A stretch of DNA of 55,927 nucleotides, taken from Sashavirus 536P12. The notes below the pieces were generated by a model. That model was not told the DNA's origin, did no database searches, and was given only the letters and a program-made list of their open reading frames with translations. Location of the stretch: sequence record OZ035768.1; one strand, given 5' to 3'. The position numbers were made by a program, and so were the translations under genes. The stretch's first letter is position 1. Each line of letters opens with the position of its first letter. Below, piece after piece: positions 2,002 to 55,927 of this stretch.

Positions 2002-2586
2002 TTACTCAGTGAAAAGTTTCACCAACAGTTTGTTAATGTCAGCATCATAAGCATCATAAGCAGCACGAGCAGCATAAGCATCAGCAGCACGAGCAGCACG
2101 AGCAGCACGAGCAGCACGAGCAGCACGAGCAGCATCATAAGCAGCACGAGCAGCATAAGCAGCAGCATAAGCAGCAGCACGAGCAGCACGAGCAGCATAA
2201 GCAGCATAAGCAGCAGCATAAGCAGCACGAGCAGCACGAGCAGCATCAGCAGCATCAGCAGCATCATAAGCAGCACGAGCAGCATAAGCAGCATAAGCAG
2301 CATTCTGTGATGGATTGTTAAGAAAATCCTGAATCAGATTAAAGTCATTCGTATAAGGTCGAATCAATTCGATATTCAACAAAGCACAATCGCAAGCGAA
2401 CCGAACGATTTTTTCTTTCGATAAGATTTTCCCGGCTAACCATAACAAGTCTGAAACGGTGTTTTCACCACCGATTAGACTAATAACTTCAACAGGTTCG
2501 TCAGTGTTGTTAGTCTGAATGATGAAACGTTTAAAACCTTCCTGACATGCGCCAAAATTTTTCAGTTCTTGTTTAGTGATTTTCAT
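2002..2586 (-). CDS. protein with N-terminal globular domain and C-terminal Ala-Ala-(Arg/Tyr/Asp) tripeptide repeat array
   Basis: 194-aa ORF; residues ~95-185 are AAY/AAR/AAD repeats encoded by a near-perfect 9-bp tandem DNA array; GAGGG SD upstream of ATG at 2586; driven by promoter P2. Confidence 0.6.
   Translation of the reverse strand: MKITKQELKNFGACQEGFKRFIIQTNNTDEPVEVISLIGGENTVSDLLWLAGKILSKEKIVRFACDCALLNIELIRPYTNDFNLIQDFLNNPSQNAAYAAYAARAAYDAADAADAARAARAAYAAAYAAYAARAARAAAYAAAYAARAAYDAARAARAARAARAARAADAYAARAAYDAYDADINKLLVKLFTE
2035..2303. repeat. tandem 9-bp (3-codon) repeat array (agcacgagc / agcataagc / agcatcagc), ~30 units
   Basis: directly visible periodicity in sequence 2035-2303; lies inside the 2002..2586 CDS. 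Confidence 0.9.
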
Positions 2587-16229: not shown

Positions 16230-16277
16230 GTGATAAAGATACCCCACCGCTTGTAATCCGTCAAGAATTATTTTAAA
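16230..16277 (-). promoter_or_regulatory. conserved promoter element (P7)
   Basis: GTCAAGAATTATTTTAAA at 16260-16277; minus-strand -35 TTGACG, -10 TATCTT. Confidence 0.65.
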
Positions 16278-16560
16278 GGTACAGCTAATACAGAACGTGT
16301 ACTAACTGCACATAGTTCTACATAGGTTTCATGATTTTGAGTTGCAGCTAATACAGAACGTGTATTAGTAGATCATGGGTTCATAGATTTCGTCATGTTT
16401 ATTTTTTAACCAACCTCTCTCTATCTTATTCTTTTTATTATCTTTTTATAATAAACATGATAAACATAGATAAATAGAAGAGTAGTATAAGTAGTATAAG
16501 TTGCTGCAAGTAGGAGAGGTTTAAAAGGTATAGGGAGTCGCATACTTCCCATGAATCTAT
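16278..16560. repeat. iteron-rich AT-rich region A (candidate origin or regulatory hub)
   Basis: two copies of AGCTAATACAGAACGTGTA; a 69-bp block (16382-16450) ~97% identical to 55578-55646; inverted arms CATAGATTTCGTCATG / CATGAATCTATACG flank the AT-rich core. Confidence 0.7.
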
Positions 16561-16603
16561 ACGTAAAATAATTCTTGACGGATTACACCGACACAACTAC
16601 CCT
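16561..16603 (+). promoter_or_regulatory. conserved promoter element (P8, + orientation)
   Basis: AAAATAATTCTTGACGGATTACA with TTGACG at 16575-16580; divergent from P7 across region A. Confidence 0.6.
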
Positions 16604-16633: not shown

Positions 16634-17002
16634 ATGGATCCGAACATCAGAATTGCTACAGACGAATTCATTCGTCGCGCCCGTAAAATTCACGGTGATC
16701 GTTACGACTACTCATTCAGCATTGTTGAAGATAGTTCCAGCACCGTGGTTATTATTGACCGTGAAACTAACACAGTGTTTTTCCAGGTTGTCGCTGAACA
16801 TCTGGACGGTGTTGAACCGGTAACGACTGCTGTTGAACCGGTAACGACTGCTGTTGAACCGGTAACGACTGCTGTTGAACCGATCAAGAATCTTTCTGAG
16901 ATATTCGGTAACGTCGTAAACAGCGTGTATCACCAGTGCAATTATTCATCTGAAATGTTAGAATTTAGTCATGTTGAAACAATACGAGGACAATCCCCGT
17001 GA
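16634..17002 (+). CDS. hypothetical protein with tandem VEPVTTA heptad repeats
   Basis: ORF 16604 begins with GTG; likely start ATG 16634 after AAGGG; N-terminal EFIRRARKIHGDRYDYS resembles the repeats of the 25306..26217 protein. Confidence 0.5.
   Translation: MDPNIRIATDEFIRRARKIHGDRYDYSFSIVEDSSSTVVIIDRETNTVFFQVVAEHLDGVEPVTTAVEPVTTAVEPVTTAVEPIKNLSEIFGNVVNSVYHQCNYSSEMLEFSHVETIRGQSP
16811..16882. repeat. 21-bp tandem repeat x3.4 (gttgaaccggtaacgactgct)
   Basis: perfect direct repeats inside the CDS, in frame. Confidence 0.9.
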
Positions 17003-17409
17003 TTAACATAAAAGTTAATAAGGTTGACAACTCACTACGTATGGTGTTCGGTTGGGGTAGTATCTGTAAAAAACGCAATCAGGAGACAGGCCAGTTAGAA
17101 ATTTACACAGACACGGACAACGAGCAATTTCCCGAGGATGTCACTCTGAAAGCATGGTTGGACTTCATGAATTCTGATCAGCGCATCATGGACAATATGC
17201 ACAATGAACAATCTGTTGGGAAAGTTGTGTTTGCGTTCCCGATGACTGAAGACATTGCGGCAAGTTTTGGACTGGTTGATAAACTGGATCAGACAGGCGT
17301 CATTGTTGGTACGTTGATAACTGATGACGAAGTTTTGAAAAAGTTTCAGACTGGTGAATATACGGGATATAGTATCGGTGGAACTGCATATTATGAGGAT
17401 GTGGAATAA
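16999..17409 (+). CDS. prohead protease-like protein (XkdF / S78-like) candidate
   Basis: 136 aa; N-terminal KVDNSLRMVFGWGSI and C-terminal GYSIGG resemble this family; sits just before the scaffold and capsid genes. Confidence 0.4.
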   Translation: MINIKVNKVDNSLRMVFGWGSICKKRNQETGQLEIYTDTDNEQFPEDVTLKAWLDFMNSDQRIMDNMHNEQSVGKVVFAFPMTEDIAASFGLVDKLDQTGVIVGTLITDDEVLKKFQTGEYTGYSIGGTAYYEDVE

Positions 17410-25013: not shown

Positions 25014-25309
25014 TCGACTTCCTCTTGTGGAACGATAAGACAGACGGGGACGACCTGGACTGGGTTACACAAGGGGCGGCTGCACGTGGTATATCTGTTC
25101 CGAGTGTTGTACAGAAACGTCCTGAATTGCGACCTGATGCTATCTTTTACTGGAATGCTTATCTTGATTTGATAAATAGTGATTGGGTTGCTTGTGAGCG
25201 GTATGCACGGGTGTATAACGTTGATGTACAGTTCCTATGGAAATTATTGGTAGCATTGCGGTCTGCACGTGTTGTCGAGATGAAGAAAAATAAACATAAG
25301 CCCGGTTAG
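24591..25309 (+). CDS. tail assembly chaperone frameshift product (gpGT-like), -1 frameshift at A_AAA_AAC (25004-25010)
   Basis: slippery heptamer A AAA AAC just before the G stop (25011-25013); -1 frame is open from 25004 to 25309 (ORF 25025..25309). Confidence 0.5.
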
Positions 25310-25322
25310 TTCCGGGCTTTTT
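25299..25322. terminator. bidirectional terminator hairpin
   Basis: AAGCCCGGTTAGTTCCGGGCTT followed by a T-run, at the junction of convergent genes. Confidence 0.6.
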
Positions 25323-26217
25323 CATTTATGTAGTCGAGGATTGCGGGAGAATATTTAAACCACTCTGTAGCACCGTCAAAGCCTTTGAGACGCGCATTAA
25401 GTTCACGGAAGACCTTGTGTACCTCTTGTTCCAGTTTGTAAGCATCAGCGCCGTGTGGAAATGGATACGACACGAGTTTAACCACGGGGTGCGGAGTTCG
25501 TCGTTGTAGTTGTCGTAGTCGCTGTTTTAAGTCGTTTGTAACACCGACTTTAAGCAGAGTGGGACACTGTTTATCATCGGTTAACACGTAGAGTGTACCG
25601 GGTTCAAGTGGGTTGAAACCCGCTTGTGAACATTGTGGGCAAGCGTTTAAACAGCAATGGTTATTAGGAGTCTGTTCAAACACCCCATGCTCGGGACATA
25701 TTATTTTTACTCGAGTGAAATTATTAATATACTCCACCAGTGAGTAATCGTATTTGTTTCCGTGAATTTCACGAGCACGATTGACGAATTCTTCAGTAGT
25801 CAAGCGTTGTTGTTCAGACGACTGTTCCCGAGCACATTGTGGGCAACCTCTCCCGTGAACATGGTTGTTAGGAGTCTGTTCAAACACCCCATGCTCTGGG
25901 CATGTTATTTTTACTTTAGTATGAGCGCCTTTATGTTCCACCAACGAGTAATCGTATTTGTGTCCATGGAGTTCACGCGCCCGTGTGATGAATTCTTCTA
26001 CAGGTGATCGTTTTTGTTCTACCGCACACCATGGACACCCATGTTTCAAAGAAACATGATTATTAGGAATCTGTTCAAACACACCATGTTCTGGACAGGT
26101 GACCTTCACAGGAGTACACCAATTCACATACTCCACTAGCGAGTAATCGTATTTGTGCCCGTGAAGTTCACGGGCACGCGTGATAAACTCTTCTGTGGTT
26201 AAACGTTTCCTACTCAT
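25306..26217 (-). CDS. T5orf172 (GIY-YIG-like) domain protein with three N-terminal zinc-ribbon-like repeats (homing-endonuclease-like)
   Basis: 303 aa; three ~65-aa repeats (TTEEF..RARELHGHKYDYSLVEY...CPEHGVFEQ.PNNH...GCPxC); C-terminal LYVLTDD...LLKVGVTNDLKQRL matches the T5orf172 signature. Confidence 0.55.
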   Translation of the reverse strand: MSRKRLTTEEFITRARELHGHKYDYSLVEYVNWCTPVKVTCPEHGVFEQIPNNHVSLKHGCPWCAVEQKRSPVEEFITRARELHGHKYDYSLVEHKGAHTKVKITCPEHGVFEQTPNNHVHGRGCPQCAREQSSEQQRLTTEEFVNRAREIHGNKYDYSLVEYINNFTRVKIICPEHGVFEQTPNNHCCLNACPQCSQAGFNPLEPGTLYVLTDDKQCPTLLKVGVTNDLKQRLRQLQRRTPHPVVKLVSYPFPHGADAYKLEQEVHKVFRELNARLKGFDGATEWFKYSPAILDYINEKARN

Positions 26218-33024: not shown

Positions 33025-33395
33025 TCCGTTGCAACATCTGAGCAGTGGAAAGATAAGCAGACAGGAGAAAAGAAAGAACAGACTGAATGGCATCCGTGGT
33101 CATCTTCGGAAAGCTTGCTGAGGTTGCAGGAGAATACCTTAGCAAAGGCTCGCAGGTTTACATCGAAGGACAACTTCGCACTCGTAAGTGGACTGACAGC
33201 AATGGCGTGGACAAATACACCACTGAGATTGTCATTCCGCAGATGGGTGGCTTTATGCAGATGCTTGGCGGTAAACGTGATGATTCTGGTCAGCAACAAC
33301 AACGCCAGCAACGACAACAACAGCAACCACCAAAACAACAAAGCTCACAAGGAGGAAATGAGTCTCCTATGGACTTCGAAGATATTCCGTTTTGA
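33025..33395 (+). pseudogene. ssb: single-stranded DNA-binding protein (ssb) remnant: N-terminally truncated and frameshifted
   Basis: frame 1 encodes [21 protein letters not shown], then a 1-nt frame change near 33092 continues as [34 protein letters not shown]...MDFEDIPF (ORF 33087..33395); collinear with E. coli SSB residues ~36-178 as recalled; first ~35 residues absent; no SD before ATG 33087. Confidence 0.6.
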
Positions 33396-41431: not shown

Positions 41432-42235
41432 TCAGTAACCGTTACCGTTGAGAAAATTCGGGGCCGGGGTGGTCATTACCATATAACCGTTAGCGATCAA
41501 TTGTTCATCGTTCCAACCTTGCGCAATAAACTGTTCGTAAGTAGCACCACCTGCTTTTTCAGTCATTACCTTCACAGGTGCTGCCGCTGGTGTAGGCGCT
41601 GCTACAGGTGCTGCCGCTGGTGTAGGCGCTGGTGTTACGCCGATCGGACGTGCACCTTCAGGCATTGCAGGAGCAGCACCGAACACAGAGGCAGGAGCCG
41701 GACCAGAAATAATTTCTTCACCTGCATAAAGCAATTGCGCCATTTCCATGTTGATATATACACCAGCCTGATTACCTGTACGACCGTTTGCAACAGATGA
41801 CCCGCTGATACGGTAGTAATAACCTTTTTTCGCCAGATTTTTATCAATAACTGGCTGGTACGCTGCGTTATAAACAGGACACGCGTCAATAGCCACGTTG
41901 CGTGAGAAACCAATTACCCAGTGACCAGCATAACCAGTTTTACTCGCATGTTTCGGATCGTCACCGTTAATAATTTTCCATGCGAAAGTGGGTTGTTGTG
42001 GTTCGCCGTTCACATAGTGTGAGTTAGCCGCTCGCATGATGGCCTGGAACACCGCACCAAGTTCACCTTGTTCTTCCCACCAGTTCGCAGCTGTTTTAGG
42101 AAATGCCAGACCAACCCACCAGTTATGTTTTTCAGGTGCTAACGGTTTATTTTCGTGGTCATGAGTGTTGATATCGAAAAAAGAACCGCCAACCAGACGA
42201 CCAACCGGAGTTACAAAAGATTCTTTCTGTGCCAT
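41432..42235 (-). CDS. ssDNA-binding protein candidate (gp2.5 / DUF2815-like)
   Basis: 267 aa; N-terminal FVTPVGRLVGGSFFD...KHNWWVGLAFPK pattern, Pro/Ala-rich linker, aromatic C-terminus; sits in the replication module. Confidence 0.35.
   Translation of the reverse strand: MAQKESFVTPVGRLVGGSFFDINTHDHENKPLAPEKHNWWVGLAFPKTAANWWEEQGELGAVFQAIMRAANSHYVNGEPQQPTFAWKIINGDDPKHASKTGYAGHWVIGFSRNVAIDACPVYNAAYQPVIDKNLAKKGYYYRISGSSVANGRTGNQAGVYINMEMAQLLYAGEEIISGPAPASVFGAAPAMPEGARPIGVTPAPTPAAAPVAAPTPAAAPVKVMTEKAGGATYEQFIAQGWNDEQLIANGYMVMTTPAPNFLNGNGY
41575..41636. repeat. 30-bp tandem repeat x2 inside CDS (encodes PAPTPAAAPV linker)
   Basis: CAGGTGCTGCCGCTGGTGTAGGCGCTG(C/G)T repeated directly. Confidence 0.8.
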
Positions 42236-54558: not shown

Positions 54559-54584
54559 CAAAAAAGCGGGGCTAACTACCCCGC
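54559..54584. terminator. bidirectional terminator hairpin
   Basis: AAAAAA + GCGGGGCTAACTACCCCGC between convergent genes. Confidence 0.6.
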
Positions 54585-54589
54585 TATCT

Positions 54590-55345
54590 TTATTGACCCA
54601 TCATATCTTTATACATCATCAAAACAACATCATCCGGCATATTGTCTACATCACAATGTGGGTTGTGTGATAACGCATACAGTCTGATTTTCTCCTTCAA
54701 ATCGCTGACATCGACTACAGGTGGTTCCACTCGTGTTACAGGTGGTTCCACTCGTGTTACAGGTGGTTCCACTCGTGTTACAGGTGGTTCACAAACCATC
54801 ACGTTAAACGGTGTACCGGTGCCTTCGTATTTTTCAAGCAAATCGACCATTACGTTTACACATTCCGGGATCCAGCCCCGGCGCAAACCATTCTGAATCC
54901 AACTGTCAGTAATTGTGTGTTCGTTTAAATTTCTGCGTAGCACATATCTTGCACATTCAAAATTACCGCACATCGCCTCAAACCGTGTCCACACGTCGTG
55001 ACCGTGAACAGCTTCCAGGATCTGTGAATCAACGTATCTGACACGTTGCCAGTATTTATTAGCAAAACGCCTGTGTGGTAATTTCTGACGCAGTTCGGTA
55101 ACCGGTATTGTGTGTTTAAGAACAATATTTTCGTCAGAATGTTGTACTGGCAAGGGTGACAGTGTGAAGTCAGTAATCTCTTCAAGAATAATACTGATCG
55201 TTTCATATTTAGGATGAAACCTACCGCTTAACCATTGGTTGTAACGACCAACAGTTACCTTAACACCCCGACGATTAAGGTATTCAACAGCGTTTTGTAC
55301 CCCGCCTTTTAAATCTATCAATTCGTCTAAAAGGTTCTTTTTCAT
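54590..55345 (-). CDS. HTH-like protein with C-terminal VEPPVTR tandem repeats (candidate regulator of adjacent operator-like repeats)
   Basis: ORF 54590..55381; likely start ATG 55345 with AAGGGTG SD; N-terminal LIDLKGGVQNAVEYLNRRGVKVTVGRYNQW resembles an HTH. Confidence 0.45.
   Translation of the reverse strand: MKKNLLDELIDLKGGVQNAVEYLNRRGVKVTVGRYNQWLSGRFHPKYETISIILEEITDFTLSPLPVQHSDENIVLKHTIPVTELRQKLPHRRFANKYWQRVRYVDSQILEAVHGHDVWTRFEAMCGNFECARYVLRRNLNEHTITDSWIQNGLRRGWIPECVNVMVDLLEKYEGTGTPFNVMVCEPPVTRVEPPVTRVEPPVTRVEPPVVDVSDLKEKIRLYALSHNPHCDVDNMPDDVVLMMYKDMMGQ
54718..54790. repeat. 21-bp tandem repeat x3.5 (caggtggttccactcgtgtta)
   Basis: perfect direct repeats inside the CDS, in frame. 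Confidence 0.9.
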
Positions 55346-55380
55346 TATCACACCCTTCTTGTTTGACCACGGGTAAATCA

Positions 55381-55927
55381 TAACGCGCGTTAGCAGCTAG
55401 TGCAAGACGTGCTTTATATGTTAGTGTGTTTACACCTAATGCATGTTGTGCATTAGCAGTTAGTGCAAGATGCACGTTGTGTATTAGCTGTTAGTGCACG
55501 TTGTGTATCTATGTTGGTACAGCTAATGCACGTTGTGAATTATATAATGCATGTTGTGCATTAAAGTTATACTTAACATAGATTTCGTCATGTTTACTTT
55601 TTAACCAACCCCTCTCTATCTTATTCTTTTTATTATCTTTTTATAGATAACATAGAAAACATAGATATAAAGAAGAAGTAGTATAGAAAGATAGAGATAG
55701 TGCATATAGTGTATTAGCTGTAAATAGAGCTAAAATAAAAGTCTGGGAGATACCTATTGTAATCTATGTTTTTATGCAAGTCTTTGAATTGATTGTGATT
55801 ATGGGCTACGTATTTATGTATGTAATCGAAAATTAGTGCATGTTGTGCACTAACTGTAAAATTAATACTAACGTTGTATTAGCTGTAAAACAGGGCGTGT
55901 GGACAACCCGTGGGTATCTGTGGGAAA
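55381..55927. repeat. iteron / operator-rich AT-rich region B (candidate origin, pac-proximal or regulatory region)
   Basis: multiple copies of TGCACGTTGTG / TATTAGCTG motifs; palindrome TTAGTGCA-N5-TGCACTAA (~55840-55860); 69-bp block 55578-55646 ~97% identical to 16382-16450; AT-rich core. Confidence 0.7.

What the first reader, a model, noticed from the sequence alone, without database searches (positions are those of the whole stretch)
16634..17002. Genes next to both iteron regions carry 21-bp in-frame tandem repeats encoding VEP(V/P)(T/V)T(A/R) heptads
The gene at 16634-17002 has gttgaaccggtaacgactgct x3.4 (VEPVTTA repeats) and the gene at 54590-55345 has caggtggttccactcgtgtta x3.5 (EPPVTRV repeats on the minus strand). 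Each gene is transcribed away from its iteron region. Similar peptide repeats encoded by different DNA repeats at two loci suggest selection at the protein level. The repeat proteins may be the iteron-binding factors, or variable surface or regulatory proteins.
Basis: seen in the sequence. Interest (0 to 1): 0.5.

Follow-up and report, generated by a model that had tools for sequence, protein, structure and literature searches.

The report
Variable proline-rich linker repeats, phage genes
Two genes of this 9NA/Sasha-like E. coli phage each carry a perfect in-frame 21-bp minisatellite that encodes a floppy proline-rich spacer whose length varies between otherwise near-identical phages; this is an ordinary kind of feature, and only one of the two proteins looks like a binder of the neighbouring DNA repeats.

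Summary
16810-16882 (x3.5) and 54716-54790 (x3.6) are perfect, in-frame 21-bp arrays in real genes of a Sashavirus/Nonanavirus phage. Both are hypervariable. Gene 1 has 1-10 heptads in 98 near-identical proteins. Gene 2 has 2-13 heptads in 16 genomes, including 13, 9 and 2 copies in three phages whose gene 2 has no substitution in the 163 flanking codons scored.

The repeats fall in regions that AlphaFold2 models with low confidence, at domain boundaries. More distant gene 2 orthologs (9NA, SP-062, Klebsiella phages) have no repeat. Gene 1 itself is missing from Sasha and 9NA. I read the arrays as slippage-driven, largely dispensable Pro-rich linkers.

The resemblance between the two heptads is mostly compositional, and the DNA units are not significantly alike, so "selection at the protein level" is not shown.

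Gene 2 has an Xre/Cro-type helix-turn-helix N-terminus. This domain is swapped as one cassette together with the adjacent palindromic sites, so gene 2 is a credible binder of the "iterons". Gene 1 is a degenerate DUF723 homing-endonuclease module that has lost its zinc ligands, inserted into the leader of the head operon. Nothing supports it as an iteron binder.

The gene 2 repeat is already annotated in GenBank for Sasha and Sergei. Interest is low to moderate.

The parts
16634..17002 (+). Gene 1: 122-aa accessory protein made of a degenerate DUF723-like module, a heptad array and a 40-aa tail. Its stop codon overlaps the GTG start of the XkdF-like protease gene (16999).
   Evidence: ORF. Orthologs are annotated in five E. 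coli phages. 98 intact variants were found. AAGAAGGG lies 8 nt upstream of the ATG.
16810..16882 (+). 21-bp in-frame minisatellite 1: (GTTGAACCGGTAACGACTGCT)x3 plus a partial unit, encoding (VEPVTTA)3-VEP.
   Evidence: TRF gives 100% matches, score 146. Relatives carry 1-10 copies. AlphaFold2 pLDDT is 25-39 over this region.
16634..16810 (+). Gene 1 residues 1-59: a degenerate DUF723-type module (helix plus three strands) lacking the CPEH/CPxC zinc ligands. The heptad array starts where the second zinc knuckle would be.
   Evidence: tblastn to the in-genome homing-endonuclease modules gives E = 6e-9. It is 44-50% identical to phage 'endonuclease' genes. Alignment A6. Precomputed PF05265 hits on homologs.
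54590..55345 (-). Gene 2: 251-aa protein made of an Xre/Cro-type HTH (residues 1-60), a helical central domain (about 75-180), a heptad linker (186-209) and a conserved C-terminal 44-aa module.
54716..54790 (-). 21-bp in-frame minisatellite 2: (GAACCACCTGTAACACGAGTG)x3 plus a partial unit on the minus strand, encoding (EPPVTRV)3-EPP.
   Evidence: TRF gives 100% matches, score 150. Relatives carry 2-13 copies. Residues 180-210 have pLDDT below 50. Sasha and Sergei records annotate it as 'direct tandem repeat region'.
55151..55345 (-). Gene 2 N-terminal HTH domain, type A. This is the part exchanged in BDX09P1 and P0003, which carry type B.
55398..55563 (.). Left block of five 19-bp palindromic sites (TAATRCA-N5-TGYATTA) immediately upstream of gene 2. 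The first site overlaps a possible gene 2 -35 element (TTGCAC, 55400-55405; -10 TATGAT, 55377-55382).
   Evidence: Pattern search: all 10 genome-wide matches fall in the two intergenic regions, against 1.3 expected. This block is swapped together with the HTH in BDX09P1 and L022. The promoter reading is my own reading of the sequence; the scan tool did not call it.
55698..55881 (.). Right block of three related palindromic sites, proximal to TerS. It is conserved even in the type-B phage.
55583..55697 (.). AT-rich, pyrimidine-then-purine block shared with locus 1. The 33-mer at 55613-55645 is identical to 16418-16450.
16286..16367 (.). Locus 1: two palindromic sites (TAATACA-N5-TGTAYTA).
16252..16587 (.). 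Locus 1 regulatory region, bracketed by a perfect 24-nt inverted repeat (16252-16275 and 16564-16587). Each arm carries the phage's recurrent promoter-like motif AATAATTCTTGACGGATTACA, and the two copies point outward.
25306..26217 (-). Homing-endonuclease-like gene with three DUF723 modules and a T5orf172 domain. It is the in-genome paralog of the gene 1 N-terminal module.
54565..54585 (.). Bidirectional terminator-like hairpin just downstream of gene 2.
   Evidence: Annotated as a terminator in the AVIO78A, Sasha and Sergei records.

Best explanation
The two 21-bp arrays are independent coding minisatellites (VNTRs). They expand and contract by replication slippage or unequal recombination. 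They persist because each encodes a proline-containing, non-helical, probably disordered spacer at a domain boundary, where length changes of 7 residues are tolerated.

In gene 2 the spacer tethers an N-terminal DNA-binding part (Xre/Cro HTH plus a helical central domain) to a small conserved C-terminal module. The HTH most likely binds the palindromic sites directly upstream of its own gene, as an autoregulator and/or organiser of the TerS-proximal control region. The heptads only set the reach of the C-terminal module.

In gene 1 the array follows a decayed DUF723 module derived from a homing endonuclease. The whole small ORF is a lineage-specific insertion into the leader of the head-assembly operon.

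Shown: copy-number hypervariability, in-frame perfect units, homogenisation within genomes, absence from distant orthologs, low model confidence over the repeats, the HTH fold, and the co-swap of HTH and sites.

Inferred: the slippage mechanism, the linker role, DNA binding by gene 2, and near-neutrality of copy number.
For: - Perfect arrays.
- Gene 1: tally by protein length gives 1, 2, 3, 4, 5, 6, 8 and 10 heptads in 1, 40, 35, 11, 6, 3, 1 and 1 of 98 proteins; every one listed is at least 76% identical overall, the lower values reflecting extra repeat copies.
- Gene 2: 2-13 heptads in 16 genomes. Sasha, Sergei and Solent show 0 substitutions in 163 flanking codons yet carry 13, 9 and 2 copies.
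- Units are identical within a genome but differ between genomes (TRV, ARV, SRV, ARA; P/A at position 2), which indicates concerted evolution.
- Gene 2 orthologs at 38-49% identity (9NA, SP-062, Klebsiella Carvaje-like phages) join the same two domains with 3-12 unrepeated residues.
- Gene 1 is absent from Sasha and 9NA, where the same intergenic region runs straight into the XkdF-like gene.
- AlphaFold2: gene 2 residues 180-210 have pLDDT below 50, between better-modelled helical parts. Gene 1 residues 52-122 have pLDDT 25-39.
- A third duplicated Pro/Ala-rich linker (APTPAAAPV x2) sits in the Enc34-type SSB at 41432-42235, so such expansions recur in this genome.
- Cassette swap: window 55140-55582 is replaced in BDX09P1 while the flanks stay 90-100% identical. 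13 type-A genomes have 5-9 A-sites and no B half-sites. 2 type-B genomes have 6-7 B half-sites.
Against: - No experiment or read-level data show slippage or neutrality.
- Every close relative keeps at least 1 (gene 1) or 2 (gene 2) units, so a minimum spacer may be needed.
- The two arrays share the period (21 bp) and a VEP..VT core. A proteome-wide null makes this unusual: only 53 of 14,912 heptads score as well, and I expect (not counted) that many of those come from the two arrays themselves.
- Both structure models have low overall confidence (mean pLDDT 60 and 42), and low pLDDT is only a proxy for disorder.
- In BDX09P1 and Sasha the locus 1 sites do not match the type expected from their gene 2 HTH. 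Gene 2 therefore cannot be the sole binder of all such sites in every phage.
Confidence: 0.72

Rival explanations
1. The two heptad repeats are a shared functional peptide motif kept similar by selection. For example, both could contact the same partner in a nucleoprotein complex at the two repeat-rich regions, making both proteins 'iteron factors'.
For: Both have the same 7-residue period, a shared VEP..VT core, and a position next to the two paralogous control regions. BLASTP of the repeat segments gives E = 5e-6, though this is inflated by repetition. Few other heptads in the proteome score as well.
Against: - Order adds little beyond composition: 6.5% of permutations score as well.
- The gene 2 unit drifts by non-synonymous changes between phages.
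- Distant gene 2 orthologs lack repeats.
- Gene 1 is absent from Sasha and 9NA, which keep the region.
- The C-terminal tails are unrelated (BLASTP finds no hit; hhalign probability 0.1%).
- Copy numbers of the two genes do not track each other (3/3, 2/3, 3/5, 2/4, 2/5, 3/2).
Confidence: 0.1
2. The arrays act at the DNA level as phased (two helical turns) protein-binding sites embedded in coding sequence. The precedent is the lambda origin, whose iterons lie inside gene O in the part that encodes the inter-domain linker.
For: The 21-bp period equals two turns of the helix. Gene 2 has an O-like layout (DNA-binding N-terminus, linker, small C-terminal module) and sits beside palindromic sites and an AT-rich block. 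The lambda comparison comes from my own knowledge.
Against: - The units bear no resemblance to the palindromic sites, and no such site occurs inside either gene.
- Copy number ranges from 1 to 13.
- Unit sequence differs between phages at several positions.
- Distant orthologs lack the array.
- The two units are not significantly similar as DNA.
Confidence: 0.04
3. The arrays are contingency loci. Rapid linker-length variation would be adaptive, for example tuning regulator reach to different hosts or escaping a host defence that recognises these proteins.
For: Copy number changes faster than point substitution. Non-synonymous changes outnumber synonymous ones in the gene 2 unit. The phages come from different hosts (E. 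coli O-types, Salmonella serovars).
Against: There is no visible association of copy number with host or with the number of upstream sites. The changes are conservative (A/T/S, V/A, P/A). No defence-related annotation exists, and the PADLOC library was not searched.
Confidence: 0.1
4. Gene 1 is not a functional gene but a decaying homing-endonuclease remnant that is translated only because it sits in an operon leader. Its repeat would then be neutral junk.
For: - The module has lost its zinc ligands and is truncated.
- The AlphaFold2 model is poor.
- It has no homologs outside the E. coli-infecting sublineage.
- Flank pN/pS is noisy, 0.2-2.2 on 1-8 substitutions per class per pair.
- It is an insertion relative to Sasha and 9NA.
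Against: 98 distinct variants all keep an intact frame and the same C-terminus. The gene has its own Shine-Dalgarno sequence and a stop/start overlap with the protease gene. Most pairwise pN/pS values are below 1.
Confidence: 0.3

Closest known systems
Coding minisatellites / VNTR-encoded Pro-rich spacers (e.g. the TonB (Glu-Pro)n-(Lys-Pro)n spacer, Ala/Pro-rich linkers of 2-oxo-acid dehydrogenase E2 chains, staphylococcal surface-protein repeat regions). Comparison from my own knowledge.
   Same: Short in-frame tandem units rich in P, E, V, T and A. The segments are non-helical and lie between folded domains. Copy number is polymorphic between close strains, and units are homogenised within a genome.
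   Different: Here the repeats are in small cytoplasmic phage proteins (an HTH regulator-like protein and an endonuclease-derived ORF), not envelope or enzyme-complex proteins. No function for spacer length is known.
Phage lambda O initiator and ori-lambda. Comparison from my own knowledge.
   Same: Gene 2 has an N-terminal site-specific DNA-binding domain, a flexible linker and a small C-terminal module. It sits next to multiple dyad-symmetric ~19-bp sites and an AT-rich block. The DNA-binding domain and its sites are exchanged together between relatives.
   Different: There is no sequence or profile similarity to O or any Rep family. The sites lie upstream of the gene, not within it. A second, similar region exists at 16.3 kb. 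The phage also encodes a P4-family primase that may carry origin recognition. Origin function is untested.
Cro/CI/Xre-type phage regulators with adjacent palindromic operators, and Aca-type autoregulators
   Different: No Pfam HTH model is matched. About 190 extra residues belong to a family restricted to 9NA-like phages, with 12 hits at E <= 1e-3 among 1.84 billion representatives. There are 8 sites spread over about 500 bp around an AT-rich block. The phage group is described as virulent (my recollection; no lysogeny genes were reported for AVIO78A in PMC10612097).
DUF723 (PF05265) modules of T5orf172/GIY-YIG-type phage homing endonucleases
   Same: Gene 1 residues 6-59 align at 37-50% identity with these modules, including the FIxRAxxxHGxxYDYS motif.
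   Different: It is a single truncated module with no Cys/His zinc ligands and no nuclease domain. It is fused to a heptad array and an unrelated 40-aa tail, and it is below the Pfam threshold in my scans.

Membership tests
Coding VNTR / minisatellite-encoded linker | Head-to-tail units of near-identical sequence whose length is a multiple of three, inside an ORF | tested here: met
   Both arrays have period 21, 100% matches and 3.5-3.6 copies, and both are in frame.
Coding VNTR / minisatellite-encoded linker | Copy-number polymorphism among close relatives that exceeds point divergence, with units homogenised within genomes | tested here: met
   Gene 1 has 1-10 copies. Gene 2 has 2-13 copies. 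Flanks with no substitution in the 163 codons scored carry 13, 9 and 2 copies. Unit variants are genome-specific.
Coding VNTR / minisatellite-encoded linker | The encoded segment is an unstructured spacer between domains and is dispensable for the fold | tested here: inconclusive
   pLDDT is below 50 over both arrays, and distant orthologs have no repeat. However, the models have low overall confidence and disorder was not measured.
Alpha-helical coiled-coil heptad repeat | a/d hydrophobic pattern in a helix-forming sequence | tested here: not met
   Every heptad contains one or two prolines. DSSP on the models shows no helix over the arrays.
Xre/Cro/CI-type helix-turn-helix DNA-binding domain (gene 2 N-terminus) | Compact four- to five-helix fold containing the HTH | tested here: met
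Xre/Cro/CI-type helix-turn-helix DNA-binding domain (gene 2 N-terminus) | Sequence match to a curated HTH family model | tested here: not met
   No Pfam or NCBIfam family was matched.
Xre/Cro/CI-type helix-turn-helix DNA-binding domain (gene 2 N-terminus) | Binds dyad-symmetric operators | not testable with these tools
   Indirect support only: 8-5-8 palindromes lie adjacent, and the domain and sites are swapped together.
Iteron-binding replication initiator (lambda O / plasmid Rep type) | Homology to a known initiator family | tested here: not met
   There are no Pfam, NCBIfam or PDB sequence hits. The family has only 12 relatives at E <= 1e-3, the 8 strongest (E <= 1e-10) being full-length or fragmentary gene 2 homologs.
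Iteron-binding replication initiator (lambda O / plasmid Rep type) | Repeated binding sites next to an AT-rich unwinding element that functions as an origin | tested here: inconclusive
   Sites and an AT-rich block are present at both loci. Both regions are also divergent promoter regions in front of virion-gene operons. GC skew is uninformative. Origin activity cannot be tested here.
DUF723 (PF05265) module (gene 1 N-terminus) | Match to the Pfam model at the gathering threshold | tested here: not met
   My scans found 0 families. Precomputed PF05265 hits exist for about 20 close homologs. tblastn to the in-genome DUF723 modules gives E = 6e-9.
DUF723 (PF05265) module (gene 1 N-terminus) | Conserved CPEH...CPxC zinc-knuckle residues | tested here: not met
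   Alignment A6 shows CPEH replaced by DRET(N). The second knuckle is replaced by the start of the heptad array.

The most novel reading that the evidence does not exclude
Gene 2 founds a previously undescribed family of phage site-specific DNA-binding proteins, either origin organisers or late-operon regulators. Their exchangeable HTH reads the palindromic 'iterons'. Their conserved C-terminal module is held on a naturally length-tunable heptad tether, so copy number (2-13) would set the reach or geometry of a nucleoprotein complex at the TerS and head-operon control regions. The gene 1 tether would be a convergent or borrowed copy acting in the same complex.
Probability: 0.1. Interest if true: 0.55.

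Novelty: new member of a known kind. Interest (0 to 1): 0.3.

Why it matters
As it stands the finding is modest. It documents two fast-evolving coding VNTRs that could serve as strain-typing markers for Sasha/9NA-like phages. They can also collapse or vary in short-read assemblies, which matters for annotation.

The more useful by-product concerns gene 2. It is a core gene of unknown function, always divergent from TerS in 9NA-like phages. It now has a concrete, testable assignment: an Xre/Cro-type DNA-binding protein whose specificity domain co-varies with the adjacent palindromic sites. That gives an entry point to the unexplained repeat-rich, AT-rich control regions of this phage group. The natural series of linker lengths could be used to test whether tether length matters.

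Tried and rejected
- Homology between the C-terminal tails of the two proteins. BLASTP found no alignment and hhalign gave probability 0.1%. Rejected.
- Common DNA origin of the two 21-bp units. The local-alignment score is reached by 8% of genome 21-mers. Not supported.
- Pfam, NCBIfam, PHROG and PDB sequence searches for both proteins gave no informative family. The weak DNA_Packaging_2 and DHH_CID hits (E about 0.01-0.1) cover 16-47 residues of the HTH region and were discounted.
- An exhaustive profile search of 1.84 billion representatives with the gene 2 alignment found 12 proteins and no annotated relatives.
- The AlphaFold2 model of gene 1 was too poor (mean pLDDT 42) to justify a fold search.
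- Stand-alone homologs of the HTH (P0116, P0118) lie on short, unrelated contigs and say nothing about locus 1.
- Cumulative GC skew follows transcription direction and does not mark an origin.
- A putative 'TACCCGTGGT' leader motif is not specifically associated with promoters. Dropped.
- Zeng et al. 2019 (J Virol, 9NA-like phages), which probably describes these regions, is not in the library. Other papers on AVIO78A, Sergei and Bas82 do not mention the repeats.

Full report
**Identity of the window.** The window is a complete or nearly complete genome of an E. coli-infecting 9NA/Sasha-like siphophage (Sashavirus/Nonanavirus). Over the two regions queried, it is 95-97% identical to phages PDP46, AVIO78A, KarinMuster_Bas82, PJ16 and BDX09P1. 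Part of the locus 2 region (about 60-65% of that query) also matches Salmonella phages Sasha, Sergei and Solent at 94-96%. The window starts at the small terminase gene (ATG at position 30). The region 55346-55927 is therefore the divergent intergenic region between gene 2 and TerS.

**Check of the observation.** Tandem Repeats Finder reports two perfect 21-bp arrays: 16810-16882 (3.5 copies, score 146) and 54716-54790 (3.6 copies, score 150).
- The first lies in frame in a 122-aa ORF, 16634-17002 (+), reading HLDG-(VEPVTTA)3-VEP-IKN.
- The second lies in frame in a 251-aa ORF, 54590-55345 (-), reading MVC-(EPPVTRV)3-EPP-VVDV.

Both genes are annotated as CDS in related GenBank records, and both point away from the neighbouring repeat-rich intergenic regions. 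The heptads align only with a one-residue shift (VEP-VTTA against VEPPVTR).

**Copy-number variation.**
- For gene 1, 98 proteins from genomes and metagenomes have lengths that step by 7 residues. All are at least 76% identical overall, with the lower values reflecting extra repeat copies rather than divergent flanks. They hold 1, 2, 3, 4, 5, 6, 8 or 10 heptads in 1, 40, 35, 11, 6, 3, 1 and 1 proteins respectively.
- For gene 2, sixteen genomes or contigs hold 2 to 13 heptads.
- Sasha, Sergei and Solent have no substitution in the 163 flanking codons of gene 2 that I scored, yet carry 13, 9 and 2 copies. Copy number therefore changes much faster than point mutation.
- Units are identical within a genome but differ between genomes: EPPVTRV here, EPPVSRV in AVIO78A, EAPVARV in PDP46, EPPVARA in Sasha. 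This is the signature of concerted evolution in an unstable array.
- The between-genome differences in the gene 2 unit are mostly non-synonymous but conservative (A/T/S, V/A, P/A).
- Copy numbers of the two genes do not track each other across genomes.
- Gene 2 copy number does not track the number of upstream sites.

**The repeats are dispensable in evolutionary terms.** Gene 2 orthologs at 38-49% identity conserve both flanking domains but join them with 3-12 unrepeated residues. These are 9NA gp84, FSL SP-062/SP069, several metagenomic proteins and the Klebsiella Carvaje-like phages. The Klebsiella proteins instead duplicate the central domain. One distant homolog (P0112) has a single 'EPPV' at the same junction, a possible seed for the array.

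Gene 1 is absent altogether from Sasha and 9NA. In those phages the homologous intergenic region runs straight into the XkdF-like protease gene; a tblastn search of the phage collection also found full-length gene 1 only in five E. coli-group phage records (PDP46, AVIO78A, KarinMuster_Bas82, PJ16, BDX09P1), so Sergei and Solent appear to lack it too. The alignment places gene 1 as an insertion of roughly 370 bp between the conserved leader (…GTGGTTAA) and the protease RBS (CGAGGA). Its last codons and stop codon are supplied by the old leader, and the stop overlaps the protease GTG start.

**Structure predictions.**
- The AlphaFold2 model of gene 2 (8-sequence alignment, mean pLDDT 60) has a confident N-terminal four-helix domain (residues 1-60, pLDDT 80-93). 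It also has a moderately confident helical central domain and a two-helix C-terminal module. Residues 180-210, which span the heptads, have pLDDT below 50.
- The gene 1 model is poor (mean pLDDT 42). It shows a helix plus three strands at residues 3-54, then pLDDT 25-39 from residue 52 to the end.
- With one or two prolines per heptad, the arrays cannot be coiled-coil heptads.
- I read both arrays as extended or disordered spacers. This rests on low model confidence and composition, not on measurement.

**What gene 2 is.** No Pfam, NCBIfam or PDB sequence match exists. An exhaustive profile search of 1.84 billion representative proteins found only 12 relatives. This is a narrow family confined to 9NA-like phages, and it always sits next to TerS.

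The 'iterons' upstream are 8-5-8 palindromes, TAATRCA-N5-TGYATTA. All ten matches in the genome (1.3 expected) lie in the two intergenic regions: eight between gene 2 and TerS, and two upstream of gene 1. The site nearest gene 2 overlaps a possible -35 element of a TTGCAC-17-TATGAT promoter. That promoter is my own reading of the sequence; the scan tool did not call it.

The strongest evidence is a natural cassette swap. In BDX09P1, window 55140-55582 is replaced by unrelated sequence while both flanks remain 90-100% identical. This segment covers the first ~65 codons of gene 2 plus the adjacent ~240 bp holding the left block of sites. The replacement carries a different HTH (about 40% identical) and a different set of half-sites (TAATMCTRTSRTAG). 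A metagenomic contig with the same type-B HTH has the same type-B sites.

Across 15 genomes, the 13 type-A proteins go with 5-9 A-sites and no B half-sites. The 2 type-B proteins go with 6-7 B half-sites. More distant orthologs each have their own repeated sites upstream: TAACAC-N3-GTGTTA in 9NA and TTTCAGCTTACCAG in Klebsiella phages. I infer that the gene 2 HTH binds the adjacent sites.

Whether it acts as an autoregulator or late-operon regulator, or as an origin-binding protein, cannot be decided here.
- Both regions carry an identical 33-bp stretch within a larger AT-rich block, and both precede virion-gene operons (TerS; protease, 421-aa protein, capsid).
- At locus 1 the region is bracketed by two outward-facing copies of a promoter-like 21-mer that occurs 13 times in the genome.
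- In BDX09P1 and Sasha the locus 1 sites do not match the type expected from their gene 2 HTH. Gene 2 therefore cannot be the only binder everywhere.

**What gene 1 is.** Residues 6-59 are 44-50% identical to modules of phage 'endonuclease'/GIY-YIG/T5orf172 genes. They are 37-40% identical to the three tandem DUF723 modules of this phage's own homing-endonuclease-like gene at 25306-26217, which matches T5orf172 at 8.6e-14 and DUF723 at 1.6e-12.

The gene 1 copy has lost the CPEH and CPxC zinc-knuckle residues and is truncated. The heptad array begins exactly where the second knuckle would be. The 40-residue tail matches nothing and is not related to the gene 2 tail.

The ORF is intact in all 98 variants, has a Shine-Dalgarno sequence, and is translationally coupled to the protease gene. 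Flank pN/pS is mostly below 1 but rests on very few changes. It may be a domesticated small protein or a slowly decaying remnant. Nothing links it to the palindromic sites, and phages that lack it keep those regions.

**Similarity of the two repeats.**
- At the DNA level the shared five-codon core (V-E-P…V-T) is 12/15 identical, and the three differences are synonymous. The whole-unit alignment is nevertheless unremarkable: 8% of 21-mers from this genome, tandemised, align to unit 1 as well as unit 2 does.
- At the peptide level few other heptads in the phage proteome score as well (53 of 14,912). I expect, but did not count, that many of those come from the two arrays themselves. However, 6.5% of permutations of VEPPVTR do as well. 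The likeness is therefore mainly V/E/P/T composition, which is typical of flexible linkers.
- A third duplicated Pro/Ala-rich linker (APTPAAAPV x2, 30-bp period) lies in the Enc34-type ssDNA-binding protein at 41432-42235. An Ala-rich 9/18-bp array lies in the ORF at 2002-2586. In-frame expansions are thus a general habit of this genome.

**Comparison with what is known, and verdict.** The arrays are coding VNTRs that encode proline-rich spacers, a well-known class. The gene 2 array is already flagged as a 'direct tandem repeat region' in the Sasha and Sergei GenBank records. The gene 1 array is not flagged in any of the records retrieved here.

The layout of gene 2 resembles lambda O or Cro/CI-type regulators, but it fails every sequence-based membership test for those families. 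It meets only the HTH-fold criterion. I rate the finding as a new member of a known kind, with low to moderate interest.

The best-supported mechanism is slippage-driven length variation of tolerated inter-domain linkers (confidence about 0.7). The useful side result is that gene 2, not gene 1, is the credible binder of the neighbouring palindromic repeats.

Noticed in passing
window 1022-, 2833-, 9211-, 11434-, 12576-, 16252-, 16567+, 24501-, 26445-, 44215-, 44278-, 49685+, 51456+: The 21-bp motif AATAATTCTTGACGGATTACA occurs 13 times with up to 3 mismatches, against 0 expected. It looks like a phage-specific promoter: an A/T-rich upstream part plus a TTGAC -35 element, followed about 17 nt later by a TAxxxT. 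Two perfect copies in inverted orientation bracket the locus 1 region.
   Followed up: partly
window 16418-16450 and 55613-55645 (wider blocks about 16383-16500 and 55575-55700): An identical 33-bp pyrimidine-rich stretch (TCTCTATCTTATTCTTTTTATTATCTTTTTATA) lies within a larger AT-rich block, followed by a purine-rich stretch. It is present only at the two 'iteron' regions and is conserved in Sasha and 9NA. It could be an unwinding element or a shared late-promoter element.
   Followed up: partly
window 55140-55582 vs L013 (BDX09P1) and L022: There is a sharp mosaic replacement of the gene 2 HTH-coding segment together with the adjacent block of binding sites. Two specificity types exist (A and B).
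   Followed up: yes
window 25306-26217 (-): A 303-aa homing-endonuclease-like gene with three tandem DUF723 zinc-knuckle modules and a C-terminal T5orf172/MUG113 domain lies in the virion-gene part of the genome (tail region by comparison with the 9NA gene order).
   Followed up: partly
window 2002-2586 (-), array 2041-2303: A 194-aa ORF with no Pfam match has a C-terminal half that is a long Ala-rich array (AAR/AAY/AAD triplets). TRF reports periods of 9, 18 and 39 bp, up to 29 copies, at 75-80% matches.
   Followed up: no
window 41432-42235 (-), array 41574-41631: An Enc34-type ssDNA-binding protein carries a perfect 30-bp duplication encoding APTPAAAPV(A) x2, in a Pro/Ala-rich linker before its C-terminal region. 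This is a third repeated linker in a DNA-binding protein of this phage.
   Followed up: partly
L014 328-1263 and L017 1498-2424 (Klebsiella phages Carvaje, KP13-27): Gene 2 orthologs in Klebsiella 9NA-like phages have a tandem duplication of the whole central helical domain (YG.DVW.RF...) instead of a heptad array. Their upstream repeats are of a different type (TTTCAGCTTACCAG).
   Followed up: partly
L018 3320-3420 (Sasha locus 1) vs L017 and L014: The Sasha locus 1 repeats (ACATATCTGGTAAGAC / ACATATCTGGTTATCTG) resemble the Klebsiella-phage locus 2 repeats (rc ACATCTGGTAAGCTG) rather than Sasha's own locus 2 sites. The two control regions of one phage can therefore carry different site types, and it is unclear what binds the locus 1 sites in Sasha.
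   Followed up: no
window 33291-33341: A CAA/CAG trinucleotide run (about 16 triplets, 71% matches), probably a poly-Gln/Asn or similar low-complexity stretch in a coding region. The ORF was not examined.
   Followed up: no
window 16999-17409 (+): The gene after gene 1 matches the Pfam family Peptidase_S78_2 (XkdF-type putative prohead serine protease, E = 1.1e-7). The Bas82 record annotates its ortholog as 'DNA methyltransferase', which looks like a mis-annotation.
   Followed up: no
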